64,000 nucleotides of DNA from Candidatus Kuenenia stuttgartensis (GTDB taxonomy: Bacteria; Planctomycetota; Planctomycetia; Planctomycetales; Planctomycetaceae): positions 11,687-75,686 of the forward strand of contig CAMAVB010000004.1 of the NCBI GenBank assembly GCA_945861465.1. The letters run 5' to 3'. This document shows positions 17,360 through 58,658 of the stretch, in pieces (positions within the stretch are counted from its first letter, which is position 1; the number at the start of each line of letters is the position of its first letter). The notes under the pieces are model-generated. The model did not search any database. It was not told where the DNA came from and worked only from the letters and a program-made list of their open reading frames with translations. The position numbers and the translations under genes were made by a program.

Positions 17360-18612
17360 CAGCCGCGAGCCTCCTGCAGCAGAATCTCGCGGAAGGCTTC
17401 CAGCACACGAGAGTCGGGTTCGCTGCGAAACTTTTCGCGATACGCATCCAGAAAAATATCTTCCGGATCGATCGTCTTCAGGTCTGTCTGGTTAAACGCT
17501 GCTGCGGCCTCGCCGGCTGCAGCATCACGCTCGGCACTTTCCACCTTGATCGACGCCAATCGCAACTGTTTGCCTTCCATTGCGTGTTCGATCCGACGTC
17601 TGCGCAGGGGATCCGGCCCCTCTTCCAGAATCCGTACTTCCACAAACGGATGCTGTTCCTGCGGAAGCGTGTCGTCCAGGCGCACTGATCCCAACAGGCC
17701 AAGGACATCATCGATCACCGCTGCAGCTGTGGCCGGAATTCGCAACATCATTGCGACGCGAGGAATCAGAATTTCCTCGACCGTCGCCAGTCGCGTTTTC
17801 TCGAAGGTCAGCTTCAGCAACTGATGCTGGTATCCGGCTTCCGCGAACGACAATGGAATCGGGCTGCCGCTGTAACGAATCCGTCCGCTGTCGAACTTCT
17901 GAGCACGATGCAGATGCCCCAGAGCCACATACGCGATCTGCGGGTCAAAAATGTCCGGACCAATTGCTTCCGCTCCGCCGATCACCAACCGACGTTCGGA
18001 GTCCCGCGATTCTTCCCCGCCATGCAGATGACAGTGCCCCAGCGCGATCAACGCCGCATCGGGGTTGAGTTCTGCTCGCAGCGTTACTGCTGCCGCCGTG
18101 GTGCGACGATAGAGTTCCCGAATACCGTCCAGATACGGATCGACCGCGTTCTTCACCAGCGGAACATCCGACGGACGCAGAAACGGGACGGCAATGGCGA
18201 TCGCCTGCACGCACCCTGCACGATCCTTCAGTGGCACAAGAAACTTTGCCAGATTGATGTTGCCCGCATCGTCCTGTCCGACCGTGCCGACAACCGAAAT
18301 ATCGAGCGAATCCAGCAATCCAGCCGGAGCTTCGAGACGCGCACCCGCATCGTGATTGCCGGCGGTCAACACGATTTGCAGCCCGGGCAGCGCTGCATGT
18401 GCGTTCGCCAGAAAGTTGTAGAAACGCTTCTGAGCCGCTGCCGACGGATTGATCGTATCGAACACATCCCCCGCGACAATCAAAGCGTCCGGTCGCTGAG
18501 ACTGTAGTTCTGCCAGCAGCCAGTCCAGAAAACAGCGATGCTCGTAGTCTCGATCAAACCCACAAAACGACTGCCCCAGATGCCAGTCTGCCGTGTGAAA
18601 AACTGTCAACAT
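17359..18612 (-). CDS. sbcD: SbcD/Mre11-type nuclease
   Basis: Calcineurin-like phosphoesterase motifs FHTADWHLG, VAGDVFD, GNHD, GHxH. Start at ATG 18612 (MLTVFHTADWHLG). Confidence 0.9.
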   Translation of the reverse strand: MLTVFHTADWHLGQSFCGFDRDYEHRCFLDWLLAELQSQRPDALIVAGDVFDTINPSAAAQKRFYNFLANAHAALPGLQIVLTAGNHDAGARLEAPAGLLDSLDISVVGTVGQDDAGNINLAKFLVPLKDRAGCVQAIAIAVPFLRPSDVPLVKNAVDPYLDGIRELYRRTTAAAVTLRAELNPDAALIALGHCHLHGGEESRDSERRLVIGGAEAIGPDIFDPQIAYVALGHLHRAQKFDSGRIRYSGSPIPLSFAEAGYQHQLLKLTFEKTRLATVEEILIPRVAMMLRIPATAAAVIDDVLGLLGSVRLDDTLPQEQHPFVEVRILEEGPDPLRRRRIEHAMEGKQLRLASIKVESAERDAAAGEAAAAFNQTDLKTIDPEDIFLDAYREKFRSEPDSRVLEAFREILLQEARG

Positions 18613-18661
18613 GGATGTGCCAAATCTGTGATTCCGTGCCAAAGGCAGGTAATGTGGTAGT

Positions 18662-18810
18662 CCAGGGCAACGCCCTGGGATTGCTCCAATGTACTTGATG
18701 GTTTCCGTATTGTAGGGTGGGACCAGCGGCTGATAAGCCGCGCCGGCCCACCGATATCACCAATGCTCATGGTGGGCCGGCGTTCGCGTTGCTCGCTGGT
18801 CCCACCCTAC
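18662..18810. repeat. short hairpin plus nested REPIN-like palindrome (gtagggtgggaccagcg family)
   Basis: ccagggcaacgccctgg, then gtagggtgggaccagcg...gccggcccacc...ggtgggccggc...cgctggtcccaccctac (outer and inner arms). Confidence 0.85.
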
Positions 18811-18831
18811 TTTGCCGCCCTTCCCACCAGG

Positions 18832-21534
18832 TTACATTGCTGGCCTCAACGCCAGTAACTTCGCCAACGCTTCAGCAAACTGCGTCAGCGATTCTTCCGA
18901 CGGAAGATTGATCTTCAGCGACTTCTGACCCTTGTCGTCCGTTTCTGCCGCTTCCGTCAGCTGCTGTCGAAGTTGAGTGACAGTTTCCGTGGACGGCGTT
19001 GTGCCGGAGTCCGGGAGCATCTGGGACAGGAAGCCAAATGCCGCCGTGAGCAACTGACCGCCAGCAGCGGCCATGTTTTCGCGGCGGGCGACGAGACGAG
19101 TCGCTTCCGCTTCCTTCTCACGCTTTTGACTTTCGTCCAGATGACCTTCCGGAAGCGCGCCAAGCAGGATTTCCAGCCTCGCTTTGAGCTGATCCATGCC
19201 ACTTTGTAAATTGACTTCACTGATCTCCGAATCGTAGTCCAGAGCCGCCATCGCCAGTTCTTTCTTCTGGCCAATCGTCGTCAGCAATTGTTCTTCAAGT
19301 GTGTCTTCGGTCACGAGAATGTACACGTTCACCGGTCGCTTCTGCCCCATCCGGTGTGCTCGGGCGATGCGCTGTTCAAGCACGGCGGGATTCCACGGCA
19401 GATCGACATTGATCACCGTATCAGCAGACTGCAGATTGAGTCCCGTGCTGCCGGCGTTGGTTGACAGGAAGACCTTGCACTTCGGATTGTTCTGGAATTC
19501 GTTGACGATCTGCTGGCGCTTATTCTGCGGAACTTTGCCTTCAAGTCGCACAAACGGAACCTTCCGCTTCTTCAGCAATGGCTCGATCAGATCCAGCATG
19601 CGCGTCCATTCCGAGAATACGACTGCTTTGTGATCGCCGTCCACAAAGAGCTGTTCGAAAAGCTCATCCAGCGTTTGTAATTTGGAAGAATATCCCGCAC
19701 CCTGTTTATCGACAAGATATGTGCTGTCCGCCGCCATGCGGCACATCATCATAGCCTGTCGCAGCTTGAGCAGATCCATTTCAGAGATGTACGCTTTGCG
19801 CGTAATGGACGCAATGATCCGCGCGTGCGCCAAGTGCAACGCGCGCTGTTCTTCTGTCGGAGGGATGTGAATGATCTGAGTGTTGCGCGGCGGCAGATCT
19901 TTCATCACCATGTCGCGCGTGCGGCGGAGCAGAATGGGTTTGAGCTGTGTTCGCAGTTCATCCAGATTTTTGTAACCCAGAACGAAACCCTTGTCGTCGG
20001 TGATGCGATAACGATTAAAGAATCGAAAGCCCGGTCCCAGATGCCGACCGTCAACAAACTGCACGACCGAGTACAGTTCGTCCAGTCGGTTTTCCAGCGG
20101 CGTGCCGGACAGTACAAGTGCAAACTGCGACTTCAGACTCTTGACGATGCGCGTCGTTTGAGCCTCCCAGTTTTTGATCCGCTGACCTTCGTCCAGAATA
20201 ATGAGATCCCACTTCGCGGCTTCGATCGGCATAATGTCACGGAGGACTTGTTCGTAGTTGCAGATCGTGAAGAACGCAGGTTCGTTGTACTGCGCGGCTC
20301 GATCTTCGGCTTTCCCCATGACGAGTTGAGATGTTCGAGCGGAGAACTTCTGAATTTCATTTTTCCACTGTGACTTGAGCGAGGTCGGGCAGATCACGAG
20401 AACTCGAGTGATTCCCGCTTCGCGGGCCAGCAATTCCGCAACACCAACGCCTTGAATGGTCTTGCCGAGTCCCATGTCGTCAGCAAGGATTGCCCGCCCT
20501 GCCCCGGCGGCAAACGCAATACCGTCCATTTGGTAAGGCAGCAGTTCAGTTTTCAGCAACGTGGTACGCAGAGCATGCTTCTGTGGATCTTTGCGGATTT
20601 CATCGACCAGATTTTTGATGCGTTGCCGATAAAGTTGTTGCTGAATAAACTCTTCGGCATCCGGATAGACGACGACGGATTCGCCGAGTCCTTCCAGTTT
20701 GTCGATGCGGCGGACGAGGTCGTTGACATCGGAAATATCCACGTTCTGAATCGGGCCAATGATCTTTGCTGTTGATTCACTCGGTCGATCCGGTGTGCCC
20801 AGTCGCAGTGCCAGTTCAATGCCGTATTTTAAGTAGACGCTCGTGTCCTTTTGTTTCGGTTTTTTCTTAAATGCTCCCGGATCAAACCGCCGTCGGATTT
20901 TGAGGAGCGTGTGCAGAATATGCTTGCAGGTTCCGAGCGTGTTACTTCGAAAGTCAGGACATGTGCAGAACGAATCACCGGGTTCTGTACCACGCAGAGC
21001 GACGCGATATGTCTTGCCACTCAGCCTGCTGGTGACAACATAATCCTGCCACGGAGTCTTGCTGACTTTGTCAGTCGCTTCGACGATGAACTTTTCGTCC
21101 TTCGCCCGCTGCGCTCGCTCGCTGAACGCCAGTTCGATGAGTTCCTGTTCACCGAGCGGCTCGACAGCTTCACGTTCGACCGGCGGCTTCGCGAGACCGA
21201 GTGACGATTTGGAATCCATAATCACTGACAATGCCGTACCCAGATGTTCGCAGGGAACATTGCATTTGTCGCAGTTCAGGAGCATCCGTTTGACTTTGTC
21301 CTGCCGCATCGTGATCGTGACGATAACGTCTTCGCCTGGCAGTGAAAGTCGAAACAGATCGCCATCCAGGTAGATCTGTTCGTCCCATTTTGCAATTCCA
21401 ATTTTTCCGCCTGCATACAGCAGTTTCTTGCCCTCAATCGGACCGCCGAGCAGTTCACATGCCTGTGTAAACGTGAGTCGTGAAAGGCGATCTTTCAGCG
21501 TAAGATCTTTAGACTTCTTAACCTGCGTCGCCAT
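18832..21534 (-). CDS. SNF2-family helicase with N-terminal SWIM zinc fingers
   Basis: SWIM motif CTCPDFRSNTLGTCKHILH (plus a degenerate CDKCNVPCEH). SNF2 motifs LADDMGLGKT and DEGQRIKN. Helicase-C motifs GSTGLNLQSADTVINVDLPWNPAVLEQRIARAHRMGQ. Confidence 0.9.
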   Translation of the reverse strand: MATQVKKSKDLTLKDRLSRLTFTQACELLGGPIEGKKLLYAGGKIGIAKWDEQIYLDGDLFRLSLPGEDVIVTITMRQDKVKRMLLNCDKCNVPCEHLGTALSVIMDSKSSLGLAKPPVEREAVEPLGEQELIELAFSERAQRAKDEKFIVEATDKVSKTPWQDYVVTSRLSGKTYRVALRGTEPGDSFCTCPDFRSNTLGTCKHILHTLLKIRRRFDPGAFKKKPKQKDTSVYLKYGIELALRLGTPDRPSESTAKIIGPIQNVDISDVNDLVRRIDKLEGLGESVVVYPDAEEFIQQQLYRQRIKNLVDEIRKDPQKHALRTTLLKTELLPYQMDGIAFAAGAGRAILADDMGLGKTIQGVGVAELLAREAGITRVLVICPTSLKSQWKNEIQKFSARTSQLVMGKAEDRAAQYNEPAFFTICNYEQVLRDIMPIEAAKWDLIILDEGQRIKNWEAQTTRIVKSLKSQFALVLSGTPLENRLDELYSVVQFVDGRHLGPGFRFFNRYRITDDKGFVLGYKNLDELRTQLKPILLRRTRDMVMKDLPPRNTQIIHIPPTEEQRALHLAHARIIASITRKAYISEMDLLKLRQAMMMCRMAADSTYLVDKQGAGYSSKLQTLDELFEQLFVDGDHKAVVFSEWTRMLDLIEPLLKKRKVPFVRLEGKVPQNKRQQIVNEFQNNPKCKVFLSTNAGSTGLNLQSADTVINVDLPWNPAVLEQRIARAHRMGQKRPVNVYILVTEDTLEEQLLTTIGQKKELAMAALDYDSEISEVNLQSGMDQLKARLEILLGALPEGHLDESQKREKEAEATRLVARRENMAAAGGQLLTAAFGFLSQMLPDSGTTPSTETVTQLRQQLTEAAETDDKGQKSLKINLPSEESLTQFAEALAKLLALRPAM

Positions 21535-21654
21535 CGTGTCGCTCCGTCTGTGTGTGCTGCCGGGAAATGTCTTATGTCAAGCCGAAGCAGAACTTTATCG
21601 CAGCGAAGTTCGTTTGGCGAGCGAACAGTGAATCTTGTTTTCCGACGTTGAGTA

Positions 21655-21760
21655 GCAATCCGGCGAGCGGTGTGGCGTCAGCCCACCGATATGGGATTTG
21701 AGATTTCAAATTTCAAATCTGAAATCGCAATGTACCGGCAAGCTGACCCATGCCGCACGC
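21655..21760. repeat. REP-like pair (ggcgagcggtgtggcgtcagcccacc family) around a gatttga/tcaaatc palindrome
   Basis: ggcgagcggtgtggcgtcagcccaccgata ... gatttgagatttcaaatttcaaatctgaaatc ... tgtaccggcaagctgacccatgccgcacgc. Confidence 0.7.
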
Positions 21761-21771
21761 ATCATGTCCGA

Positions 21772-21846
21772 TCATCCAAAGGCACGCAAATAGTAATGTC
21801 GAAGATTGGCTTTTGCGTTTTCAGTGATGACGACGCTGTAGATCAT
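21772..21846 (-). pseudogene. 24-codon ParE/RelE toxin stub
   Basis: ATGA overlap with the ParD stop. It reads MIYSVVITENAKANLRHYYLRAFG*, a typical ParE N-terminus (Y.v.it..A..dL..i..Y), and ends directly before the REP cluster. Confidence 0.5.
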
Positions 21847-22082
21847 GTGTCGCTTCGAATTCCGAATTCGCGACGAAGATCGCGAAATGCTTCGTCCAGT
21901 GGCTGCGTTCTTCCAGCCCCAACGTCATTCAAACCCGCGCGGATGCCAAGGACCGCTTCTTCCTGGTCTCGCAGCATCAGGCCGAGAGCATACTCAATAA
22001 CAGCTTCTTCATCAGGGAAGTTGCCATTAGCCACCTCGCGCTTAACAAACTGTTCAAGTAGCGGAGGTATATTGAGAAGCAT
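21843..22082 (-). CDS. ParD-family antitoxin (orphan)
   Basis: MLLNIPPLLEQFVKREVANGNFPDEEAVIEYALGLM... matches the ParD pattern (s.p..Le.fv...V.sG.y.s.sEvi..aLrll). Confidence 0.7.
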   Translation of the reverse strand: MLLNIPPLLEQFVKREVANGNFPDEEAVIEYALGLMLRDQEEAVLGIRAGLNDVGAGRTQPLDEAFRDLRREFGIRSDT

Positions 22083-22234
22083 TTCATGACTCGTGATTGA
22101 GCGACGCTAAACACCGCACCAGAAGCAAATCGAACCACCGTTCCTGCTACAGCTTAATCCAATGATGATCAATCGGCAATCTGTCACGCTGGAACAACCG
22201 GTCGAATTCTGTTCAGATGTGACAAGGAGCAATT

Positions 22235-22338
22235 CGGCGAGCGGTGTGGCGTGAGCCCACCGGTACAACCGCGATTCCACTGCGGCGGTCGTAGCTCGCA
22301 CGAATTGCAATGTACCGGCGTTGGGGTGACAGTCATGC
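22235..22338. repeat. REP-like pair, ggcgagcggtgtggcg family
   Basis: ggcgagcggtgtggcgtgagcccaccggtaca ... tgtaccggcgttggggtgacagtcatgcg. Confidence 0.7.
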
Positions 22339-22510
22339 GTTTCGAAGTCTAACGTGCTGCGCTCGTTTGGTATCCTTGTCGTCTCAGTTGCAACGTGGCG
22401 TCTCTGTGTCCCACGACTTTCTGCGAAGACGCTGTCGGATGAAGATCGCATTCGAACACGATTTTCGTATAATCGTCGGTGGAGCAAGTTGTCCGGAAGG
22501 AAGAACCAGA

Positions 22511-22717
22511 ATGAAGAAAGTTGAGCTGATTTCAATTGATGGACATCAGGCGTTGACATTGCCTGATGAATTTCGTTTCACAGAGACGACCGTTACTATT
22601 CGGAAGGTAGGCGACGCTTTGATTCTGGAGAGGGTCAAGGCCAATACGTGGCCGACTGATTTTTTCGACGCTATTCACATTGACGACACAGGGTTCATTC
22701 GTCCCTCGCAATTATGA
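22511..22717 (+). CDS. AbrB/MazE/SpoVT-type antitoxin (VapB-like), orphan
   Basis: 68 aa: MKKVELISIDGHQALTLPDEFRFTETTVTIRKVGDALILERV..., a swapped-hairpin antitoxin pattern. ATG 22511 is preceded by GGAAGGA. A possible TATAAT lies at 22468-22473. Confidence 0.65.
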   Translation: MKKVELISIDGHQALTLPDEFRFTETTVTIRKVGDALILERVKANTWPTDFFDAIHIDDTGFIRPSQL

Positions 22718-22848
22718 CTATCGCAGACACATTTGAGGCTCAATCATGCCTACGTGTCTGGTGCTGCGTTTACAGTCATGAATGCAGCTCGCAGTTCGAA
22801 ATGCGTCGTGTTTTCCATAAACTGTCTCTGGTGGTATTGCCACACTGA
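22714..22848 (+). pseudogene. possible truncated toxin ORF coupled to the AbrB-type antitoxin
   Basis: 44-codon ORF whose ATG overlaps the antitoxin stop (ATGA). It terminates 4 nt before the REP at 22853. No PIN or other motif is recognisable, so the call rests on position only. Confidence 0.2.
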
Positions 22849-22852
22849 TCCC

Positions 22853-22924
22853 GGGGAATCTCAGTCGGCGGAGCGACTGAGCTACGTAGGCGACGTCGCT
22901 CCGCCGACTCGCATTCCTGTCAAC
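22853..22924. repeat. REP hairpin family 'gggaatctcagtcggcggagcgac'
   Basis: ggggaatctcAGTCGGCGGAGCGACtgagctacgtaggcgacGTCGCTCCGCCGACTcgcattcctgtcaac. Further copies at 27075, 27425 and 28982. Confidence 0.85.
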
Positions 22925-23091
22925 GAGCTTGCCAAACAACGCCCCGTAGATCATGGAAACACATCCGCCACGTAACTTCTCTGTGCGAGTATGGTGCTTT
23001 TCGTAGATGCTGAATTGCGATTCGAGGTGCTGCACACTGCACCGACTTGGGGATCGTCATGTTTCAAGCCCATCGCTGACGACATTTTTCT

Positions 23092-24171
23092 TCAAGAGGG
23101 GAAAAATCCGTCCCGGACTTTGTAGACCGCCTCCATGTCCAGCTTCTCGCCGTCGAAGATGATCTGCCGGCTCTTCTTGTCCTTCCGGTTCTTGAGGTAA
23201 TGCGTCACGTTCATCCAGCGGATCGTCTCATCACCGCGCATCTCGTCCGTCTGGCGGATGACAAGAAACACGTCCACCGGCTGGCTGATCCAGTATTCGA
23301 GGTGGCGGTCGTTCTTCAAATCGAACACCTCGCGGCCATCGCCTTTGCGGGTGCGGAGGTAGGAATTTCCGCTCTTGAGTTGGATGTAGATCCGCTTCCC
23401 GCTGGCTCGACCGTCGTTGTCCTTGAACTCCACTTCGCCGTCGATGCCGTAGTCGAACATTGTCACCGGGCGGAAGATCTGATTCGCCTCGCCAGCGATG
23501 GCCATCATGTGTCCGATCAGGATTTGCTCCAGCGCCTGCGTGTCGAGTTCGCGCGTGGCCGTCTCTTCCATCGCCAGGATCTTGTGGGCCACGAGATCGC
23601 TTTTGAGCCGTTGCTCAATGAAATCGACGAGTTCGACCTCGGTTCGGCATTTCTGGCAAACGATCGTCGATCGCTTTTCTGCGAGCAGTTCGCGGATGAG
23701 TTCTAGGTCTTTGAAGGGACGACCGCATCCTCTGCACACATAACGCCGGTCGCGCGTCACCTCGCAGGCATACTTGGCAAGGTGGCGATGGGCATACTCG
23801 ATAAAGATCGCCTTCAGTTCGTCGCGGACCTCTCGATCAAAGTACAGGCTGATCGTCGCCTTCCCTTGGCCTTGCTGGTTGTCGATCTTCAGGCCGAGAG
23901 TGCGGCCGGAGAAGGCGAACTCCGCCGCGTTGCGCCACAGTTCGCGGTGCTCGAACTCGTTGCTGTACCACAGCCGCACGACCAGCGTGGTCCACACCGT
24001 CTGCCACTCGCCACTGAACGAGTAGGAGACAAAAATGTCCGGCTCATGCGGGATGTCCTTTTCCCGGCGGTATTGCGAGGGAAAGACCAGGTTCCGTCCC
24101 TGCGGCGTCTCCTCGGCGATGCACAGCGAGTATCGTTGCCGTTGGTGACGCCTCCACTTCAAAAAAGTCAC
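23092..24171 (-). CDS. zinc-ribbon + DUF4365-type (PD-(D/E)xK-like) protein, third gene of the TIR operon
   Basis: CRGCGRPF...CQKCRTEV CxxC pairs. The C-terminal DYGIDGEVEF...RIYIQLKSG fits the DUF4365 restriction-endonuclease-like signature. The N-terminal ~120 aa (LVFPSQY...) loosely resemble the tail of COR-type domains. Only 18 nt separate it from the upstream gene. Confidence 0.7.
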   Translation of the reverse strand: MTFLKWRRHQRQRYSLCIAEETPQGRNLVFPSQYRREKDIPHEPDIFVSYSFSGEWQTVWTTLVVRLWYSNEFEHRELWRNAAEFAFSGRTLGLKIDNQQGQGKATISLYFDREVRDELKAIFIEYAHRHLAKYACEVTRDRRYVCRGCGRPFKDLELIRELLAEKRSTIVCQKCRTEVELVDFIEQRLKSDLVAHKILAMEETATRELDTQALEQILIGHMMAIAGEANQIFRPVTMFDYGIDGEVEFKDNDGRASGKRIYIQLKSGNSYLRTRKGDGREVFDLKNDRHLEYWISQPVDVFLVIRQTDEMRGDETIRWMNVTHYLKNRKDKKSRQIIFDGEKLDMEAVYKVRDGFFPS

Positions 24172-24189
24172 GATTTTTGAGCCGCCAAA

Positions 24190-26166
24190 TCACATCTCCG
24201 CCATAACGCTCTGGAAGTCCTTGTTTGATACGAGATCACACAATTCATGCACCGTGATGACTCTAGGATTTTTCGGTGGCGTCCCGAGCCACAGTTCTGC
24301 TGAGTTAGGGTCAAGGTATTCGGGAGTGGCTACGATGAGAAAGGTTACGCATCCAGAATATTCTCGGCCCGCAGCTCGCATCTGATCAAGCAGGGCATCG
24401 CCTCGACGCTTGGCTTTTCGTATTTGCTTGACCAATTCCATTTGTCGGTTCTGAATTGTATGGAAGTGGCCCACGTGATAATCGGACGTTCGCTGCCAGC
24501 TCTTCATATCCAAGTTTACAAGAAATCCGTGTATCTCGAAGCAGAAATCTACGTCACCACAGTTTGTGTCGCCTTGTAACACATCCTTGTTAGCCGGAAA
24601 CGGAAGATTACTCGGCGTAAGTGAAAGCATCTCGACCAAGGTTGCTCGAACTTGGCTCTCAAAGAGATCACCGCGAGTATTTCCGACTCCTCCGTCTCCT
24701 GCAGTTACTGCGCTCATCAACCCATCCCAAAAATCAGGCCACGCGGTCAAATCATGGACGCATGTGTGTTCGTCTTGCTCGATGAAGAGTATCGGGTTCG
24801 AGAGGCCAACAGGGTTGGGAGTTCCGCTGAACGCCGAAAAGAACCGATGAGCGAGTTCATCGGGCCCTTGTGCACCAAGATGATCAAGTTCAGATGACAC
24901 TGCCATCCTGAATGCTTTCCTTGGGTTTCGCAGTGAACCCCGCTGCAGAACGGCGACCATATGCACCACCGCGCCTCGAAGTAGCGTGGCGTCCGCCGGA
25001 GAACTCAGGGTCAACGCCGGGGCGTCATTCCATTTACCTTCACGCAACCAACCGCATTGTGTATGCCTCTCGATGACAAGCCCCAAGGCGGCCAAGCACA
25101 GTTCGAGCTCTGCTGCGGAGAGATCGAACTTCGCCTTCAATTGCGGATCGAAGTATTGGCCGAGCAAGCGAATCCTCCCCTGCCAGCTCGTATTCGCGAT
25201 TGGATACCAGTTTGGTGACGGGAAAGCGGCGTCTAATTTAGGAACATGTACCGGAAGCGGCATCGAATCCGGCAGGGCGGGTATCACTGACCAAATCCGG
25301 TGTATCTGGTCTGGCACCGGCTCTTTTGGACCGGCAAGAAGGCCGGGCCGCGAGTAGTCCGAAAATTGCATTTGACGGCGAGAATCGTACGCTGCGGCAG
25401 CTCGCTCGATGGACTCGTTTGCTTCGAGGCCAACACTGGGTACGAGTAGGATCCCACTGCCGTCCCAATCATCGAGCGCATCCAACTGTGATTGGCTCAA
25501 TTGCTCAGGAAGCGATCCGATTTTGCGGCCCTTTCCGGCCCAGCGATACCAGTTTTGGGACCAGACAAGCAAATGGCAGGCACCGATGAATCTGCCAAGG
25601 ATCTTCGGTGCGTCGCGTTCAAATGCACTCCATTGCGAGGGGGGCAAGGCAATCGCCGTCATGCCATCTTCCCGAACTCGTTCCCATTGAACGCCATTGG
25701 AATTAACGGCCATTGCACGCATGGTCCGAATTACTTGTGCGATCGTGTTATTGTCATTAGGCAGCAGCAATTGGCAGGCTAAAGCAATTACAGAGTGGGG
25801 CAACGAACTCGTCACTTGAATAGAGAATCGGCAATCCCATTTGCTCAATGCCTTTTCAGCTTCGCTCATTGCTAATCGGACCAGCCGTTCGAGGCGTATC
25901 GTGTCGAACTTGTCGTCGCGTGTCGCATCATCTTTCAGCCAGTCATCCAGGATACGGCTCCATTCGGTGAGAGCGGACTTTCGCAAGTCAAGCAGGCGAG
26001 GGCGGACAATGCGTTCGAGTTGTGTAGCCATCCAGTCCTCTGGAGGTCTTGAACTCGATTCGTCCCCCAACTCCGCTGAGTTCGGCTTGCCGCAACACTT
26101 CTTAAACTTCGATCCACTGCCGCAAGGACATGGAGAATTGCGTCCCGGTTGTTTGCTAGTCGTCAC
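24190..26166 (-). CDS. SEC-C-motif protein with unassigned central region and NERD-like PD-(D/E)xK C-terminus
   Basis: GTG 26166 is preceded by GAGG and gives MTTSKQPGRNSPCPCGSGSKFKKCCGKP (SEC-C metal-binding motif). C-terminus: GDLFESQVRATLVEM ... GDVDFCFEIHGFLVNLDMKSW (D.D...(D/E)xK.W as in NERD nucleases). The longer ORF start at 26418 overlaps the TIR gene and was rejected. Confidence 0.7.
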   Translation of the reverse strand: MTTSKQPGRNSPCPCGSGSKFKKCCGKPNSAELGDESSSRPPEDWMATQLERIVRPRLLDLRKSALTEWSRILDDWLKDDATRDDKFDTIRLERLVRLAMSEAEKALSKWDCRFSIQVTSSLPHSVIALACQLLLPNDNNTIAQVIRTMRAMAVNSNGVQWERVREDGMTAIALPPSQWSAFERDAPKILGRFIGACHLLVWSQNWYRWAGKGRKIGSLPEQLSQSQLDALDDWDGSGILLVPSVGLEANESIERAAAAYDSRRQMQFSDYSRPGLLAGPKEPVPDQIHRIWSVIPALPDSMPLPVHVPKLDAAFPSPNWYPIANTSWQGRIRLLGQYFDPQLKAKFDLSAAELELCLAALGLVIERHTQCGWLREGKWNDAPALTLSSPADATLLRGAVVHMVAVLQRGSLRNPRKAFRMAVSSELDHLGAQGPDELAHRFFSAFSGTPNPVGLSNPILFIEQDEHTCVHDLTAWPDFWDGLMSAVTAGDGGVGNTRGDLFESQVRATLVEMLSLTPSNLPFPANKDVLQGDTNCGDVDFCFEIHGFLVNLDMKSWQRTSDYHVGHFHTIQNRQMELVKQIRKAKRRGDALLDQMRAAGREYSGCVTFLIVATPEYLDPNSAELWLGTPPKNPRVITVHELCDLVSNKDFQSVMAEM

Positions 26167-26194
26167 ATTAACCTCTGGTGTAATCAAAAAATCG

Positions 26195-26632
26195 TTATGG
26201 AAGGGCCCCCTCCGCTTCCTCGCGGAAATCAACGTACTTGTAACGCTGCAGCGTGTCCGGCAGTTTGCAGTCGGCCAGCAGGAGCGGGATGAAGCGGCGG
26301 CCGGCATTGGCGGGGTCGCGATGGATGGCGGTGCTCCGCTCCAGGGCCACCCAGTCCGAGGCGAGCGCCGCGGGCGAGAGGCACAGCAGCAGCACCCGCG
26401 ACTGCTCCAGACCCTCATCCACTTTCAGCGAGATGATGTCCCCCGGCTGGATGACCCACTCATCCAACCACACCGGCAGCCCCGCCCCCTTCAGCCGCTC
26501 CGCCAGCTTGCGGACTTTTGGCTTGTCGTCTTTGTTGTGGCTGAGGAACACATCGAATGCAAAACGAGCGTCTTTCGTTTGGTCATTTTCCCCAGCGTCA
26601 GCCGCCGATTTCTTCGATGCCTGTTTTGCCAT
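26195..26632 (-). CDS. stand-alone TIR-domain protein
   Basis: FDVFLSHNKDDKPKVRKLAERLKGAGLPVWLDEWVIQPGD...VLLLCLSPAALASDWVALE is the TIR_2 pattern, including the W..E position of the catalytic Glu. Start at ATG 26632 (MAKQASKKS). Confidence 0.85.
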   Translation of the reverse strand: MAKQASKKSAADAGENDQTKDARFAFDVFLSHNKDDKPKVRKLAERLKGAGLPVWLDEWVIQPGDIISLKVDEGLEQSRVLLLCLSPAALASDWVALERSTAIHRDPANAGRRFIPLLLADCKLPDTLQRYKYVDFREEAEGALP

Positions 26633-26790: not shown

Positions 26791-27496
26791 TCAGCGCCCG
26801 TGTGCAGACGTGCAACATGAACTCACTGCGACAACTTTGTGATCTTTGCGTTCTTTTGCGGCTAAAATCCTATGGCGGCCTGACATGTCTTGAAATCATG
26901 AATGGGCGCAAGAGATCGCAAAGAGCGCAAAAGGAAACACAGTTTTTCACCACGGAGGACACGGAGGAATCGCGGGGAGACAGATGGCAGGAAAATGGAG
27001 GGCAGGAATATCTGGCACGGAGCCGCGACATGGTGTCCATAAGCTGTCTCTGATGGCATCGCCACGCTGATGCCGGGGAATCTCAGTCGGCGGAGTGATT
27101 GAACTACGTAGGCGATGTCGCTCCGCCGACTCGCATTCCTGTCAGCGCCCGTGTGCAGACTTGCAACATGAACTCACTGCGACAACTTTGCGATCCTTGC
27201 GTTCTTTTGCGGCTAAACCCTGTGGCGGCGTGACATGTCTGGAAATCATGAATGGCCGCAAGAGATCGCAAAGAGCGCAAAAGGAAACACAGTTTTTTAC
27301 CACGGAGGACACGGAGGAATCGCGGGGAGACAGATGGCAGGAAAATGGAGGGCAGGAATATCTGGAGCGGAGTCGAGACATGGTGTCGTTAAGCAGCCCT
27401 GGATGGCATCGCAATGAGGGTACCCGGGAATCTCAGTCGGCGGAGCGACTGAACTACGTAGGCGATGTCGCTCCGCCGACTCGCATTCCTGTCAAC
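26791..27496. repeat. two tandem copies of a ~351-bp composite repeat
   Basis: tcagcgcccgtgtgcagac... recurs at 26791 and 27142. Each copy holds a long hairpin (ttgcgatcYttgcgttcttttgcggc / gccgcaagagatcgcaaagagcgcaaaagg), a ggaggacacggaggaatcgcgggg module, and a gggaatctcagtcggcgg hairpin. Confidence 0.85.
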
Positions 27497-27746
27497 GCAC
27501 ATGGCCAACAACGCCGCGTGGCTGGCCGGCTGTTGAAATCCATGCTGTCCAGCACTGTACCGGAGGGCTCACGCCGCTCCGCTCGCCAGGGTGGTGTTGT
27601 GATGCCTGCGAACGGGATCAGGAAACTGAAGATGATCGACCGCAAGCGTATCGCAACAGTACAGAAGGTAACGCAGGTTTTACTACGGAGAACTTGGCGT
27701 GGGCTTGGCCCGCAACCCAGAATGGAAGAAATGAAAGAAATTCTTA

Positions 27747-28015: not shown

Positions 28016-28312
28016 ATGATGGGAAAACAAATGCCGACAATGAACATTTCAGTGACAAATGAATTGATCGAAATGGTTAACGGCAAGGTCAATTCGGGGT
28101 TGTATGGAGATGCCAGCGAAGTCATCAACGCGGCATTGCGTCTGATGGATGAGTATGATCAGTCCCAGCACTTTACAATCAGACAGATCGAACAGAAACT
28201 TGGGCGCGGATTGCAGCAGGCGGAAAAGGGTGAGTTCACCGAGCAATCAGTCGGGGACATTGTTGCAGAAGCCAAAGCGTTCAAACTTGCTAACCGTTCG
28301 TCCGCCACATGA
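28016..28312 (+). CDS. ParD-family antitoxin
   Basis: MNISVTNELIEMVNGKVNSGLYGDASEVINAALRLMDE is the canonical ParD N-terminus. The stop overlaps the toxin ATG (ATGA). The true start may be an internal Met (MPTMNISV). Confidence 0.85.
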   Translation: MMGKQMPTMNISVTNELIEMVNGKVNSGLYGDASEVINAALRLMDEYDQSQHFTIRQIEQKLGRGLQQAEKGEFTEQSVGDIVAEAKAFKLANRSSAT

Positions 28313-28644
28313 CCAATTATCGCTTAACGCTTGAAGCCAAAGCAGATTTAATTGAAATCTGGAACTACTCGGATGACCTGTGGGGGTCTGCGCAAGCCGA
28401 CCGATACGTCGAAGGTTTGGAAGTCTGTTTCCGCTCGATGGGAGAACTACCGACGCACGGCTGCGCAGAGTTGCTTCCTGATGCAACTTCCGATTTGTGC
28501 TTTTATCGCTATCAATCCCACTACGTATTCTTTCGAATGGTGTCCGGCACGGTAGAAATTCTGACCATTATTCGCGCCGCACGGCAAGGAATTGTTGAGC
28601 GTTTCTTGTCAGAACATCGATCAAGGCATCCTGATTCTTTGTGA
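28309..28644 (+). CDS. ParE/RelE-family toxin
   Basis: MTNYRLTLEAKADLIEIWNYSDDLWGSAQADRYVEGL...YRYQSHYVFFRMVSGTVEILTIIRAARQ shows the ParE hallmarks (A..DL..I..Y, Y.vfyr......i.il.ii...). Confidence 0.85.
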   Translation: MTNYRLTLEAKADLIEIWNYSDDLWGSAQADRYVEGLEVCFRSMGELPTHGCAELLPDATSDLCFYRYQSHYVFFRMVSGTVEILTIIRAARQGIVERFLSEHRSRHPDSL

Positions 28645-28739
28645 GTCCACTGCAGAAAACATGCTACGACAAATCACAACTTCACGACGTGAATGCCCGG
28701 TGAGCAGTATTGGTACTTTCAATAAAAATTTCACGGGGA

Positions 28740-29017
28740 CAGTTTTGCGATCTTTGCGTTCTTTTGCGGCTAAAACCTGTGGCTCCGTGAGGTGTTCTTG
28801 AACTCATGAATGGCCGCAAGAGAGCGCAAAGAACGCAAAGGGAAACGCAGTTTTTCAGCACGGAGGAAACGGTAGATTCGCAGGAAGACAGATGACAGGA
28901 AAATGGAGGGCAGAAACATTTGGAGCGGAGTTGCGTCATGGAGTTCTTAAACGACCGTTGATGGTTCCGCCATGCGGGTACCGGGGAATCTCAGTCGACG
29001 GAGCGACTGAGCTACGC
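28740..29017. repeat. third, diverged and 3'-truncated copy of the 351-bp composite repeat
   Basis: Same module order as 26791-27496 (ttgcgatctttgcgttcttttgcggc...ggccgcaagagagcgcaaagaacgcaaaggg...ggggaatctcagtcgacggagcgactgagctacg). It ends at the stop codon of the endonuclease-like gene. Confidence 0.8.
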
Positions 29018-29898
29018 TACTTCGCATCAAATAGCCGCATCGGATTGATTTTGAACTGCAGCATGTTTGCGGTCACACGACCATTGTCGCCGCCTTTTCG
29101 CTGCATGGTGATGCCGCCGATTTTCAGGTTGCCGGCTTTCGTGATTTCGACCGGGCCGTCGCTGAAGCACATGATGGCATCTGCGGATGACGTGATCACC
29201 CATTTGGGTTTGTCAGTCGCCTTCAATGTCACCATCATCCAGCCGGCGGCATGAATACCGTCACCGGCGAGCAGGTCGGATACAATCTCATCCTTGTTCG
29301 CCGTGAAGAATTCAACAACGGTCTGCTGAACATCCGGGTCCATCTCATCCAGATACATTCGCCTGCGGTCGCGGCTGGACTCATGTGGCGGCGTCTCACC
29401 GACATAGAGTTTCAATGCCTCAACGACATCGGGCGGCATTTTCCACAATGTTGCATAGGTCGCGAGCCAGCGCTTGTCGATCTGATTAAAGCCGTTCGGA
29501 CTGCTGACGAGCTTGATGGAAATTCTCTCGACGTTTTCGCCGGACTTCGTTCTGACTGTGACTTCGACGTCGGCTTTTTCTCTGTGTGGCTTTGAGGCCG
29601 TGACGTTGTCGATATCCGCAATCTCGTAATTCATCGCGGCCAGCCATGCTTGAGCATCCGCGTCGGACTGCCAGTTGTTGAACTTGTTGCGGATTTCGTC
29701 CTCGTTTCGGAAGCCGTTTTTCGCGGTCTTCGAACCAAGCTCGACTTTTGATGGGTCTGCATCCTGAGCGGGGAGGCTGCAACGAAGCCCGCGTCGGAGA
29801 CACGGGGAACATTCCTGTGCATGCGCAATCAGGCAGGAAGACTGCAATGCCAACAGAAAGATGAGTATTGGTTTCGTGGTCATACTCGTAACTCGCAC
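29017..29898 (-). CDS. HinP1I/MspI-like type II restriction endonuclease homologue with N-terminal signal-like extension
   Basis: VELGSKTAKNGFRNEDEI..., KADVEV...ISIKLVSSPNGFNQIDKRWL (D...S-x-K catalytic-type motif), and TMQRKGGDNGRVTANMLQFKINP. As I remember them, these match blocks of R.HinP1I and more distantly R.MspI. The N-terminus MTTKPILIFLLALQSSCLIAHAQE looks like a signal peptide. Confidence 0.65.
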   Translation of the reverse strand: MRVTSMTTKPILIFLLALQSSCLIAHAQECSPCLRRGLRCSLPAQDADPSKVELGSKTAKNGFRNEDEIRNKFNNWQSDADAQAWLAAMNYEIADIDNVTASKPHREKADVEVTVRTKSGENVERISIKLVSSPNGFNQIDKRWLATYATLWKMPPDVVEALKLYVGETPPHESSRDRRRMYLDEMDPDVQQTVVEFFTANKDEIVSDLLAGDGIHAAGWMMVTLKATDKPKWVITSSADAIMCFSDGPVEITKAGNLKIGGITMQRKGGDNGRVTANMLQFKINPMRLFDAK

Positions 29899-29930: not shown

Positions 29931-30536
29931 CTACGCTCGTGCTTTTTCGAAGAGTTCTTCAACGTCCATCCGGAACCCCTTCAGGACTCTTGATACGGCA
30001 TGTTCAGTGCGGCCTGATCGGATCACGTCGCGATACTCACCGTCACGCAGGTGGAGTACTTGAATCGAATCATTGCGAGGATCAATCATCCAGTATTCGG
30101 CAATGCCGGCGGCAGCATAATCGCGACGTTTGTCCACCAGGTCACGATCCGGATCGTCAGGACTGATGACTTCGACAACCAGATCTGCCGTTTCCCAAAA
30201 CTGTTCCTGTCGCCGTTTTGAATTGGCCTTGGAGACAAACAAAACGTCAGGTTCTCGAAAGTGCCGCTCGCTGATTCGAACGCGAGTCGGGGCTGACATG
30301 ACGATTCCAAGACTGGATTGTTCTGCAAATCCATGCAACTGCAGAAACACAAGTCGTGCGATGAACTGATGCAGCAGTGATGGCACTGGCAGAACCTCCA
30401 CATTTCCGTGTACCAATTCCACCATGCGATTGCCGGGGAGCGAAAAATAGTCACCATCCCGCCACTCACCCTGACGCGGAAATAATTCCAGAATCGCCAC
30501 GCTGGCGTCATCGTTGGGCGCGTTGACAATTGACAT
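29931..30536 (-). CDS. Uma2-family (DUF820) endonuclease
   Basis: Y..LP....ELV.G...V.P.P...H, EPDVLFV and DLVVEVISP...RDLV.KRRDYAAAGI.EYW.ID motifs. Start at ATG 30536. Confidence 0.85.
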   Translation of the reverse strand: MSIVNAPNDDASVAILELFPRQGEWRDGDYFSLPGNRMVELVHGNVEVLPVPSLLHQFIARLVFLQLHGFAEQSSLGIVMSAPTRVRISERHFREPDVLFVSKANSKRRQEQFWETADLVVEVISPDDPDRDLVDKRRDYAAAGIAEYWMIDPRNDSIQVLHLRDGEYRDVIRSGRTEHAVSRVLKGFRMDVEELFEKARA

Positions 30537-30704
30537 TGCAAGGACACTTCCACGAAGATGAGTGGCGAATTGACGCCGCATTGAAAAAAGGTCTGACCTC
30601 GGAGTCGAATCGGCTTATCGTACTGCGACCTGACACTGTCGTGAAGTACAAATCGAACAATGTTTGGCGCGGACCTGTGTCCTGGCTGAGTTTCTGGAGC
30701 CCCT

Positions 30705-36556: not shown

Positions 36557-37333
36557 TTGCGTGCAAATCTCGCACTGCATCAGGGTCAGAAACATATAAG
36601 AGAGCTGACAAACGTGAAAGACAGAGTGCAAAGCCTGCATAAAAAAGCGCGCCAGCAACTGAGACGACTGGGAGAATTCCGAGGCATCCGTCGTCAACCG
36701 TTTGGCACATACCAAAAATCTGTGCGGCGGTTGTATGATGGTCGTCGCGGGTCAGTGCTGAAATTCAGCAGCATGATCTCATTGCACGAACCGTTGATGG
36801 GAAGGCTTTTCCAGTCCGGTCGCTTTGACGCTCGACGATTTGATCGAATTCTGGACGTGGGTTCAGGTGCCGGGCAGATTGTTCGTCATTTGCTCGCGAC
36901 CAGTCGCCCCGAAACTGAGGTCGTCGGTTTCGACTTGTCCTGGGAAATGCTCAAGCGAGCCAGAGAACGCCTGCAGTCTGATCGTCCCGTGTTTGTCGCG
37001 GCCGACATGCGGGCTCTGCCCTTTCGGGATAATTCATTCGACTGCGTCACGTGCGGCTACGTGCTCGAGTATCTTCCTGACCCGACAGACGGCCTTCGAG
37101 AATTCGCTCGAGTGCTGCGGCCCGGTGGAATCATTCTATTGCTGGCGACGGAAGATTCATTTTCAGGGTTGCTGACGAGTCACACGTGGAAGTGCCGCAC
37201 ATTCAATCGTGAAGAATTGAAGTCAGCCGCAGAATCGGTTGGGCTGAAGTGGGGCGTAGTTCACTGGTTCACGCGTCTTCACGAAGTGCTGAAACTGGGT
37301 GGCATCCTGGTGGAACTTGAGAAGCCAAAGTAG
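36557..37333 (+). CDS. class I SAM-dependent methyltransferase
   Basis: ILDVGSGAGQ (motif I), DMRALPFRDNSFDCVTCGYVLEYL and LRPGGIILL. The start is uncertain (TTG 36557, or GTG 36614 and others). Confidence 0.7.
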   Translation: MRANLALHQGQKHIRELTNVKDRVQSLHKKARQQLRRLGEFRGIRRQPFGTYQKSVRRLYDGRRGSVLKFSSMISLHEPLMGRLFQSGRFDARRFDRILDVGSGAGQIVRHLLATSRPETEVVGFDLSWEMLKRARERLQSDRPVFVAADMRALPFRDNSFDCVTCGYVLEYLPDPTDGLREFARVLRPGGIILLLATEDSFSGLLTSHTWKCRTFNREELKSAAESVGLKWGVVHWFTRLHEVLKLGGILVELEKPK

Positions 37334-43205: not shown

Positions 43206-43211
43206 TAGTCG

Positions 43212-44342: not shown

Positions 44343-44403
44343 GTTCTTGTTCAACCCTTGACCTGAGCGATGTCATCCTGCCATCTGAATCAATCGCCAC
44401 GTC

Positions 44404-56187: not shown

Positions 56188-56227
56188 CGAAAGTCGTTGG
56201 TGAGCAGAGATGGCCGCTTCCCGTGAG

Positions 56228-56412
56228 TCCCTTCTCCCCTGAAATCGGGGGAGAAGGTGGCCGACAGGCCGGATGAGGGGGTTGTCTTCAATATCGCCTG
56301 ATTTCTGCACTAGACATGGGGTGTGCCTTCGCATTCGCTCGTCACACCCTACGAAATTCAGCGTTTTCGAGTAGCGTGTGACAAATGATCGAATGCGAAC
56401 GCAGGTACACCG
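56228..56412. repeat. hairpin cccttctcccc/ggggagaagg plus an inverted pair of the gtagggtgtgac family
   Basis: cccttctcccctgaaatcgggggagaagg; then ggtgtgccttcgcattcgctcgtcacaccctac ... gtagcgtgtgacaaatgatcgaatgcgaacgcaggtacacc. Confidence 0.75.
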
Positions 56413-56441
56413 CGTGACGCGGTCTTGAATGATACTCGGCC

Positions 56442-57002: not shown

Positions 57003-57032
57003 TGTTCGTAACCCCACGGCAAGTGACTGGAT

Positions 57033-57089
57033 GTCAGCCCTCCGAGTGCATTGTCGTGTGCTCGGAGGGCTGACGCCCTGCCGCTCGCC
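57033..57089. repeat. REP hairpin between gspH and gspI
   Basis: gtcagccctccgag-tgcattgtcgtgtg-ctcggagggctgacgccctgccgctcgcc. Confidence 0.8.
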
Positions 57090-57106
57090 GGAGACTTTGC
57101 ACGATC

Positions 57107-57953: not shown

Positions 57954-57968
57954 GAAATGCACGGACGA

Positions 57969-58650: not shown

Positions 58651-58658
58651 AAACGAAA

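What the first reader, a model, noticed from the sequence alone, without database searches (positions are those of the whole stretch)
29017..29898. Orphan HinP1I/MspI-like restriction endonuclease homologue carrying a signal peptide
The mature part shows blocks that I remember from R.HinP1I: ELGSKTAK.GF.NE, the catalytic-region motif ..KLVS...GFNQIDK.WL, and the C-terminal QRKGGDNGR.TANMLQFKI.P. No DNA methyltransferase gene lies within about 15 kb, and the only MTase seen (36557-37333) is a small-molecule type. There is no in-frame start codon near the point where HinP1I begins. The only available starts add about 50 residues, including MTTKPILIFLLALQSSCLIAHAQE, which looks like a Sec signal peptide. 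A GCGC-type cutter without a cognate methylase should be toxic in the cytoplasm of a genome this GC-rich. An exported restriction-enzyme-fold DNase (for nutrient acquisition, biofilm DNA turnover, or defence outside the cell) would be an unusual exaptation.
Basis: partly seen in the sequence, partly recalled or inferred. Interest (0 to 1): 0.65.

Follow-up and report, generated by a model that had tools for sequence, protein, structure and literature searches.

The report
Exported HinP1I-like restriction nuclease without methylase
This gene encodes an intact relative of the GCGC-cutting restriction enzyme HinP1I that carries an export signal and has no partner methylase, and it belongs to a large conserved clade in Planctomycetota and Acidobacteriota that appears to keep a DNA cutter safe by sending it out of the cytoplasm.

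Summary
ORF 29017-29898(-) is a full-length R.HinP1I homologue (E 1.8e-62; predicted fold TM 0.88-0.90). The catalytic and GCGC-recognition residues checked are all conserved. No canonical start codon avoids the hydrophobic N-terminus. No DNA methyltransferase was found among the ORFs of at least 150 aa scanned across the window.

It is not a one-off orphan. The 120 closest proteins and 79 of 80 genomic loci (one is truncated) carry a Sec-type signal peptide whose sequence varies but whose properties are kept. In an NJ tree these forms make one clade, found in Planctomycetota and Acidobacteriota. The mature domain is under purifying selection (dN/dS 0.13-0.22). In Pyrinomonadaceae the gene sits at a fixed housekeeping locus. 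No locus has a methylase within 10 kb. Three signal-less relatives each sit next to an m5C methylase.

Best reading: a Sec-exported GCGC endonuclease kept away from the chromosome by compartmentation, not methylation.

GCGC is strongly depleted in carrier genomes (0.48-0.61 of expectation). A causal link to this enzyme is not shown. The biological role is unresolved: extracellular DNA processing or a barrier to incoming DNA.

The parts
29017..29898 (-). Complete ORF of the HinP1I-like nuclease precursor. The GTG at 29898 is the first possible start. The probable start is the ATG at 29883, giving 288 aa. The stop codon is at 29017-29019.
   Evidence: homologues P0001-P0006 start at the equivalent MTTKPIL
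29818..29883 (-). Predicted Sec signal peptide, residues 1-22 from the ATG: MTTK (n-region), PILIFLLALQSSCLI (hydrophobic core), AHA before Q23 (signal peptidase I type site). There is no lipobox and no twin-arginine motif.
   Evidence: AF2 models a helix at residues 5-22 detached from the domain; dN/dS 0.3-0.8
29749..29817 (-). Linker, residues 23-45. It includes a 17-residue Cys-rich insert (ECSPCLRRGLRCSLPAQ) found only in the window's subclade (P0001-P0012, L001-L004). Predicted disordered and weakly constrained.
   Evidence: pLDDT below 50 for residues 20-56; dN/dS 0.3-1.8
29020..29748 (-). Mature HinP1I-fold nuclease domain, residues 46-288. Catalytic E61, D105, S122 and K124 correspond to HinP1I E18, D62, Q81 and K83. 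F132, Q134, K137 and K263 correspond to HinP1I F91, Q93, K96 and K223.
   Evidence: dN/dS 0.13-0.22
29931..30581 (-). Uma2-family (PF05685) gene 33-48 nt upstream on the same strand. It is a neighbour only in the window's subclade (order gcvPA-gcvPB-TIM barrel-Uma2-nuclease). This is context, not a family-wide partner.

Best explanation
The gene encodes a precursor that is exported through the Sec translocon and cut by signal peptidase I after Ala22 (AHA|Q). This releases a monomeric HinP1I-type endonuclease into the periplasm, from where it may be secreted further. Outside the cytoplasm it would cleave unmethylated double-stranded DNA at GCGC or a very similar site, one strand at a time as HinP1I does. 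The chromosome never meets the folded enzyme, so no cognate methylase is needed: compartmentation replaces modification. What is shown: the homology, the intact catalytic and recognition residues, purifying selection, clade-wide signal-peptide features, and the absence of a linked methylase. What is inferred: export, cleavage of the signal peptide, nuclease activity, GCGC specificity and the biological role. My leaning on the role is first-step fragmentation of extracellular or necromass DNA by polymer-degrading bacteria. That is only slightly favoured over a methylase-free barrier against incoming DNA.
For: Full-length homology and fold. Residues E18, D62, K83, F91, Q93, K96, R222, K223, R229, Q236 and K238 (HinP1I numbering) are invariant in 120 homologues; Q93, K96 and K223 are GCGC-contacting residues according to PMC7026639. 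Ser at position 81 is the majority state in the whole family, 67 of 94 aligned sequences. The domain has dN/dS 0.13-0.22. Signal peptide: all 120 nearest proteins and all 79 genomic loci with an intact 5' end have a K/R n-region, a hydrophobic core and a small residue at -1. The criterion of an uncharged run of at least 12 residues with core hydrophobicity of at least 2.0 is met by 113 of 120 clade members and 0 of 53 signal-less representatives. Position -1 is A/S/G in 100 of 120 and +1 is Q in 66 of 120. Basic residues precede the hydrophobic run and acidic residues follow it, which by the positive-inside rule puts the domain outside. The signal-peptide forms are monophyletic in an NJ tree. 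No m5C or N4/N6 methylase motif occurs within 10 kb at 80 loci plus the window, and the scan detects all three positive controls. Pfam-annotated contexts of P0101 and P0034 also lack a methylase. Signal-less relatives P0126, P0127 and viral L106 each abut an m5C methylase. The gene has a stable position in Pyrinomonadaceae, next to exported hydrolase genes (Peptidase_M14, SpoIID, Peptidase_S41) and miaA-hfq-tmk-holB. GCGC avoidance in carriers is independent of reading frame and is consistent with an active, unmodified-site GCGC cutter made in these cells.
Against: No dedicated signal-peptide predictor and no experimental localisation were available. Activity and specificity are untested. An unlinked GCGC methylase elsewhere in carrier genomes cannot be excluded, because only about 20 kb per genome was examined. 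All carriers found are metagenome-assembled genomes. A 4-bp-specific, strand-at-a-time cutter is an odd choice for bulk DNA scavenging. GCGC depletion also occurs in two planctomycete replicons of unknown carrier status, so it may have another cause.
Confidence: 0.75

Rival explanations
1. It is an ordinary cytoplasmic type II restriction enzyme whose cognate GCGC methylase is encoded elsewhere in the genome. The hydrophobic N-terminus would be a membrane tether or have no export function.
For: Unlinked methylases exist in bacteria (general knowledge). Whole genomes could not be searched. GCGC avoidance is also typical of genomes with classical restriction-modification systems.
Against: None of 80 loci in two phyla has a methylase within 10 kb, while all three signal-less relatives examined do. 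The signal-peptide features are kept across the clade despite sequence turnover. The charge distribution predicts that the domain faces outward. There is no m5C-deamination signature: GTGC/GCAC are at 0.88-1.00. Slow, syntenic, vertical evolution is unlike mobile restriction-modification genes.
Confidence: 0.08
2. It is a periplasmic, methylase-free restriction barrier. The exported enzyme cuts incoming foreign DNA (from transformation, conjugation or phage) at GCGC before it reaches the cytoplasm. Carrier genomes and their mobile elements have evolved GCGC avoidance in response. This is a functional sub-case of the best explanation.
For: Recognition residues are invariant. GCGC is the lowest or second-lowest of all 256 tetranucleotides in carrier loci. 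A Planctomycetaceae phage-plasmid has GCGC at 0.24-0.30 of expectation. The window's copy lies among defence-like genes and toxin-antitoxin modules.
Against: The carrier status of the phage-plasmid's host is unknown. Injected phage DNA is normally shielded while it crosses the periplasm (general knowledge). The core-like, slowly evolving, syntenic pattern is unlike typical defence genes. No conserved partner gene was found. No viral copies of the signal-peptide form were found.
Confidence: 0.3
3. It is exported but no longer a nuclease, for example a sequence-specific binder of extracellular DNA in a biofilm matrix.
For: Activity is untested. HinP1I Q81 is Ser here.
Against: Ser81 is the commonest state in the family, including in methylase-linked members. 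All other catalytic residues are invariant under strong purifying selection.
Confidence: 0.05
4. It is an interbacterial toxin: a nuclease delivered into competitor cells, as the restriction-fold DNase domains of CDI or T6SS effectors are.
For: PD-(D/E)XK nuclease toxins exist (own knowledge, not checked here). A methylase-free GCGC cutter would be lethal inside another cell.
Against: The protein has no delivery or translocation domain. It consists only of a signal peptide, a short linker and the nuclease domain. No conserved adjacent immunity gene exists. No linkage to T6SS, CDI or other delivery genes was seen.
Confidence: 0.04

Closest known systems
R.HinP1I (PDB 1YNM, 2FKC), type IIP monomeric restriction endonuclease cutting G^CGC, Pfam PF11463
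   Same: 41% identity over the whole enzyme. Same fold (TM 0.88-0.90). Same catalytic E/D/K set, same intercalating Phe and same GCGC-contacting Gln/Lys residues.
   Different: The window protein has a Sec-type signal peptide and linker of about 45 residues. It has no adjacent m5C methylase. Position 81 is Ser, not Gln (a common family variant). It occurs in Planctomycetota and Acidobacteriota as a conserved, syntenic chromosomal gene and not as a mobile restriction-modification pair.
R.MspI (PDB 1SA3), monomeric C^CGG restriction endonuclease
   Same: Same two-domain monomeric architecture; third-best structural match (E 7e-9).
   Different: Only 13% identity. Different recognition sequence. 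Cytoplasmic and paired with a methylase.
Periplasmic or extracellular non-specific nucleases (E. coli EndA, Vibrio Dns/Xds, Shewanella ExeM; PMC6085458 for the roles of such enzymes)
   Same: Same inferred location and general job: cutting DNA outside the cytoplasm, with roles in nutrition, transformation control and biofilm.
   Different: Unrelated folds (beta-beta-alpha-Me, EEP) and no sequence specificity. The window protein matches only PF11463.
[quoted passage not shown]
   Same: A PD-(D/E)XK-superfamily nuclease predicted to be secreted, so export of this fold class has precedent.
   Different: A different family with no restriction-enzyme recognition apparatus. The same survey lists HinP1I/PF11463 only as a proteobacterial type II restriction endonuclease.

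Membership tests
R.HinP1I family (Pfam PF11463) | Significant full-length sequence similarity above the curated threshold | tested here: met
   183 bits against a cut-off of 25; E 1.8e-62 to 1ynm_A over residues 3-246 of 247
R.HinP1I family (Pfam PF11463) | Catalytic residues E18, D62 and (Q/S)81-x-K83 | tested here: met
   E61, D105, S122 and K124 in the window protein; invariant in 120 homologues; Ser81 in 67 of 94 aligned family sequences
R.HinP1I family (Pfam PF11463) | GCGC-recognition residues Q93, K96 and K223 (PMC7026639) and the intercalating Phe | tested here: met
   Q134, K137, K263 and F132; all invariant in 120 homologues. That the intercalating Phe is F91 is from my own knowledge of the HinP1I structure; PMC3025569 states only that a Phe intercalates.
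R.HinP1I family (Pfam PF11463) | HinP1I/MspI two-domain fold | tested here: met
   AF2 model pLDDT mostly 81-98 over residues 57-288; Foldseek top hits 2fkc_A and 1ynm, TM 0.88-0.90, with MspI third
R.HinP1I family (Pfam PF11463) | Mg-dependent cleavage of G^CGC | not testable with these tools
   Needs biochemistry
Type II restriction-modification system | Cognate DNA methyltransferase encoded adjacent to the endonuclease | tested here: not met
   No DNA methylase among the window ORFs scanned. None within 10 kb at 80 loci or in Pfam-annotated contexts. Positive controls were detected.
Type II restriction-modification system | A protecting methylase anywhere in the genome, with GCGC methylated | not testable with these tools
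   Only about 20 kb per genome was available. Indirect evidence: no GTGC/GCAC excess of the kind m5C decay would give.
Type II restriction-modification system | Cytoplasmic enzyme with no export signal | tested here: not met
   Clade-wide signal-peptide features
Sec-exported proteins cleaved by signal peptidase I | Basic n-region, hydrophobic h-region, small residues at -3/-1, and a non-basic start of the mature protein | tested here: met
   MTTK / PILIFLLALQSSCLI / AHA|QE. 113 of 120 clade members against 0 of 53 signal-less representatives pass the hydrophobic-run criterion. Position -1 is A/S/G in 100 of 120.
Sec-exported proteins cleaved by signal peptidase I | Export confirmed by a trained predictor or by experiment | not testable with these tools
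   SignalP, fusions and proteomics were not available
Bacterial lipoproteins (signal peptidase II) | Lipobox [LVI][ASTVI][GAS]C at the end of the h-region | tested here: not met
   The window has QSSC, with Q at -3. Many clade members have no Cys in the signal peptide at all.
Polymorphic nuclease toxins (CDI, T6SS effectors) | Delivery domain plus an adjacent cognate immunity gene | tested here: not met
   Only a signal peptide, a linker and the nuclease domain are present. No neighbour is conserved across the family.

The most novel reading that the evidence does not exclude
Restriction by compartment instead of by methylation. A conserved clade of true type IIP GCGC endonucleases works in the periplasm or outside the cell of Planctomycetota and Acidobacteriota without any methylase. 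It cuts incoming or environmental DNA, and it has driven genome-wide GCGC avoidance in the carriers and in their mobile elements.
Probability: 0.25. Interest if true: 0.9.

Novelty: new variant of a known kind. Interest (0 to 1): 0.72.

Why it matters
Type II restriction enzymes are understood as cytoplasmic enzymes that are tolerable only with a partner methylase. A large, conserved, vertically inherited clade that keeps the whole catalytic and recognition machinery, swaps the methylase for an export signal and spans two phyla would show a second way of living with a restriction enzyme: spatial separation. It would add a sequence-specific member to the set of bacterial extracellular and periplasmic nucleases. 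It may help explain GCGC avoidance in these genomes. It could bear on why such bacteria are hard to transform, and it offers a methylase-independent source of HinP1I-type enzymes. The searchable literature does not describe exported members of this family.

Tried and rejected
1. Q81->Ser as a sign of inactivation: rejected, because Ser is the majority state in the family.
2. Lipoprotein or Tat export: rejected, because there is no lipobox or twin-arginine motif.
3. GCGC depletion as m5C-deamination decay from a hidden methylase: not supported, because GTGC/GCAC are not in excess.
4. GCGC depletion as a by-product of codon usage: rejected by synonymous-codon shuffles, with depletion in all three codon phases.
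5. A conserved immunity, inhibitor or partner gene: none found across the family.
6. Hfq-anchored sampling to obtain carrier-free Acidobacteriota controls: it reached only Pyrinomonadaceae, and every locus with its upstream region present carried the gene. The carrier against non-carrier comparison therefore remains undone.
7. Plasmid search: found only signal-less Mollicutes homologues.
8. Viral search: found only 3 signal-less relatives at 35-44% identity.
9. The primary HinP1I structure papers (PMC1074309, PMC1363774) are not held. Residue roles were taken from PMC7026639 and from my own knowledge.
10. Two of my own scripts gave wrong mappings and were redone: the hmmalign columns (corrected), and the cleavage-site regex (corrected).

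Full report
**1. The observation**

The window holds a 293-codon ORF at 29017-29898 on the minus strand. Gene callers started the nearest homologues at the equivalent of the ATG at 29883, which gives 288 aa.

The ORF matches Pfam PF11463 (R.HinP1I) at E 5.4e-54. It matches the crystallised enzyme 1YNM at E 1.8e-62 over residues 3-246 of 247, with 41% identity. It matches PADLOC's type II REase model at E 3.8e-74. NCBIfam has no model for it.

An AlphaFold2 model built with a 40-sequence alignment has three parts: a helix at residues 5-22, a disordered stretch at 20-56, and a confident domain from about residue 57. Its best PDB matches are HinP1I (TM 0.88-0.90 normalised to the target), then MspI.

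The only in-frame ATG/GTG/TTG codons before the fold are codons 1, 6, 16 and 18. The next one is an ATG at codon 89, inside the fold.

**2. Is the enzyme intact?**

Using HinP1I numbering from the alignment, E18, D62, K83, F91, Q93, K96, R222, K223, R229, Q236 and K238 are all present in the window protein. All are invariant in the 120 closest homologues. Q93, K96 and K223 are named as GCGC-contacting residues in PMC7026639. A Phe intercalates into the DNA according to PMC3025569. That D62, Q81 and K83 are catalytic is my own knowledge of the HinP1I structure papers, which the library does not hold.

HinP1I Q81 is Ser here. Ser is the commonest state across the family, in 67 of 94 aligned sequences, including methylase-linked members. 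It is therefore not a defect.

Against four orthologues, dN/dS is 0.13-0.22 for the domain, 0.3-0.8 for the signal peptide and 0.3-1.8 for the linker.

**3. The N-terminal extension is a clade-wide signal peptide**

The window protein begins MTTK-PILIFLLALQSSCLI-AHA|QE. This is a basic n-region, a hydrophobic core, and small residues at -3 and -1.

All 120 nearest database proteins (68-98% identity, 261-325 aa) carry an equivalent segment. Its sequence differs freely but its properties are kept, for example MKQLAVVFLFLLLSSGVVAA|QEADAAK. The same holds for all 79 genomic loci whose 5' end is present.

An uncharged run of at least 12 residues with a strongly hydrophobic core is found in 113 of 120 clade members. 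The other seven have 11-residue runs or truncated N-termini. It is found in 0 of 53 signal-less family representatives. Position -1 is A/S/G in 100 of 120 and +1 is Q in 66 of 120.

Basic residues precede the hydrophobic run and acidic residues follow it. By the positive-inside rule this places the domain outside the cytoplasm. There is no lipobox and no twin-arginine motif.

No trained predictor was available, so export remains an inference. It is supported by evolutionary conservation of signal-peptide properties.

The window's subclade additionally has a 17-residue Cys-rich insert just after the predicted cleavage site. The insert is disordered and weakly constrained.

**4. The clade**

Searching representatives clustered at 50% identity gave 485 family clusters. 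The signal-peptide forms collapse into a few of them. Nearly all more distant members (52% identity or less) begin the fold at residues 1-15 and have no hydrophobic N-terminus. Some are fused behind m5C-methylase C-terminal motifs.

In a neighbour-joining tree the signal-peptide forms are monophyletic.

A scan of one genome per species found at least 546 genomes with a relative. The best 80 (55-82% identity) are all metagenome-assembled genomes. They come from Planctomycetota (Planctomycetaceae, Schlesneria, Fuerstiella and others) and from Acidobacteriota (Pyrinomonadaceae, Chloracidobacterium, Blastocatellia).

Viral contigs hold only three relatives, all signal-less. One of the two examined (L106) has an m5C methylase-like ORF directly upstream. 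Plasmids hold only three, all in Mollicutes.

**5. No methylase**

Pfam scans of 45 ORFs of at least 150 aa across the window found no DNA methyltransferase. The two methyltransferases present are a UbiE type next to an ABC1 kinase and a cyclopropane-fatty-acid synthase type.

A motif scan of all ORFs within 10 kb at the 80 loci plus the window found no m5C or N4/N6 methylase. The same scan detects the methylases at all three positive controls. Precomputed Pfam annotation around two more signal-peptide members also shows none.

By contrast, the nearest signal-less representatives, P0126 and P0127, and viral L106 each lie directly next to a PF00145 or m5C-motif methylase.

An unlinked methylase elsewhere in the genome could not be tested.

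**6. Genomic context**

No neighbour is conserved across the clade.

The window's subclade shares the order gcvPA-gcvPB-TIM barrel-Uma2-nuclease.

In Pyrinomonadaceae the gene occupies a fixed site: Peptidase_M14 - DUF5122 - SpoIID (773 aa) - nuclease - (Peptidase_S41) - miaA - hfq - tmk - holB. Every Hfq-anchored locus whose upstream region was present had it.

This is the pattern of a stable, vertically inherited gene among exported hydrolase genes and housekeeping genes. It is not the pattern of a mobile restriction-modification cassette.

**7. GCGC avoidance**

GCGC observed/expected under a maximal-order Markov model:

| Sequence set | GCGC obs/exp |
|---|---|
| Window | 0.59 |
| 38 Planctomycetota carrier loci (466 kb) | 0.61 |
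| 42 Acidobacteriota carrier loci (647 kb) | 0.48 |
| Five Pyrinomonadaceae hfq loci | 0.36 |

GCGC is the lowest or second-lowest of all 256 tetranucleotides, and it ranks 1-3 of 16 palindromes in all 53 loci of at least 10 kb.

Against synonymous-codon shuffles the ratio is 0.53-0.64 (z from -9 to -34) in all three codon phases. It is therefore not a coding artefact. GTGC/GCAC are not in excess, which argues against m5C-deamination decay.

Controls, with the shuffle ratio first and the Markov ratio in brackets:

| Control sequence | Shuffle (Markov) |
|---|---|
| E. coli K-12 | 1.04 (0.83) |
| Granulicella megaplasmid | 0.93 (0.87) |
| Singulisphaera plasmid | 0.61 (0.68) |
| Planctopirus limnophila phage-plasmid pPLIM01 | 0.24 (0.30) |

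The carrier status of the last two hosts is unknown. The avoidance is real and lineage-restricted. It fits long exposure to a GCGC cutter acting on unmodified sites, for example through occasional folding of the precursor in the cytoplasm. The link to this gene is not established.

**8. Mechanism and rivals**

Best supported: Sec export, signal peptidase I cleavage, and a periplasmic or secreted HinP1I-type endonuclease cutting unmethylated GCGC DNA. Compartmentation makes a methylase unnecessary.

The role is open. The core-like, slowly evolving, hydrolase-neighbour pattern leans towards processing of extracellular or necromass DNA. The retained specificity, the GCGC avoidance and the defence-rich surroundings of the window's copy lean towards a barrier to incoming DNA.

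Less likely readings are a cytoplasmic enzyme with an unlinked methylase, an inactive DNA binder, and an interbacterial toxin.

**9. Comparison and novelty**

By sequence, residues and fold it is a member of the HinP1I family. It fails two features of a type II restriction-modification system: a linked methylase and a cytoplasmic location.

Functionally it resembles periplasmic or extracellular nucleases such as EndA, Dns and ExeM, but with an unrelated, sequence-specific fold.

A different PD-(D/E)XK family (PF10107) is already annotated as predicted secreted. The same survey lists HinP1I only as a proteobacterial restriction enzyme. Searches of the held literature found no description of exported HinP1I-family proteins.

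I rate it a new variant of a known kind, of high interest to restriction-modification and extracellular-DNA specialists. Direct evidence for export and activity is still needed.

Noticed in passing
whole window; loci L001-L080, L088-L105: GCGC is the most or second-most depleted of all 256 tetranucleotides in genomes carrying the gene (0.36-0.61 of expectation, in all codon phases, with no GTGC/GCAC excess). E. coli and a Granulicella megaplasmid are near 0.83-1.04. A causal link to the nuclease is not shown.
   Followed up: partly
L103 (NC_014149.1, Planctopirus limnophila pPLIM01): This 37-kb phage-like plasmid (terminase, portal, capsid and tail genes) has GCGC at 0.24-0.30 of expectation, the lowest of all 256 tetranucleotides. 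This points to strong GCGC-directed restriction pressure in a Planctomycetaceae host. Whether that host carries the exported nuclease is unknown.
   Followed up: partly
window 26791-27153, 27142-27503, 28699-29061: There are three direct copies of a repeat element of about 365 nt (63-96% identity). The last two bracket the ParD/ParE toxin-antitoxin pair (28016-28644). The third copy overlaps the 3' end of the nuclease gene. A shared 30-mer occurs only at these three places in the window.
   Followed up: partly
window 53156-63994 (-): A type II secretion gene cluster is present (secretin, GspE ATPase, GspF, GspG, GspH-like, pseudopilins with N-methylation motifs, GspJ- and GspK-like). It could in principle move periplasmic proteins across the outer membrane. 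It lies about 24 kb from the nuclease gene and no link is shown.
   Followed up: no
window 13337-26418 (-): There is a run of defence-like genes: a 1340-aa SMC/SbcC-like ATPase (weak LmuB, DndD and mad3 matches), an SbcD-like phosphoesterase, an SNF2 helicase (ZorD/DpdE/DrmD-like), a DUF4365 protein and a SEC-C-motif protein. No DNA methylase is among them.
   Followed up: partly
window 42429-44354 (-): An AAA_21 ATPase (AriA / HEC-01A / PtuA-like in PADLOC) is followed by a 258-aa protein with no family match. This may be a two-gene defence module.
   Followed up: no
L088-L102 (Pyrinomonadaceae contigs): The nuclease gene lies 13-32 bp downstream of a 773-aa SpoIID-domain gene on the same strand. 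It sits among exported hydrolase genes (Peptidase_M14, Peptidase_S41) and just upstream of miaA-hfq-tmk-holB. Co-transcription with the SpoIID gene is possible.
   Followed up: partly
L055 10001-10804 and downstream; protein P0121: Two clade members are much longer. In L055 (a nanopore-based assembly) the ORF runs on into a GH43 glycoside hydrolase domain. P0121 (559 aa) has about 290 extra C-terminal residues with no Pfam match. These could be real fusions or assembly errors.
   Followed up: partly
Acidobacteriota loci L028-L080, L088-L097: CATG is also strongly depleted (0.70 overall; 0.33 in the Pyrinomonadaceae hfq loci). GATC and TCGA are in excess (1.3-1.5 against codon shuffles). This hints at other site-specific pressures in these genomes.
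   Followed up: no
L001, L002, L003, L010, L011, L021, L027: Record titles assign these metagenome-assembled genomes to 'Candidatus Kuenenia' or 'Chitinophaga'. L001-L003 nevertheless share gene order and 81-82% protein identity with the window and with a Planctomycetaceae genome (L004). The taxonomic labels are probably wrong.
   Followed up: no
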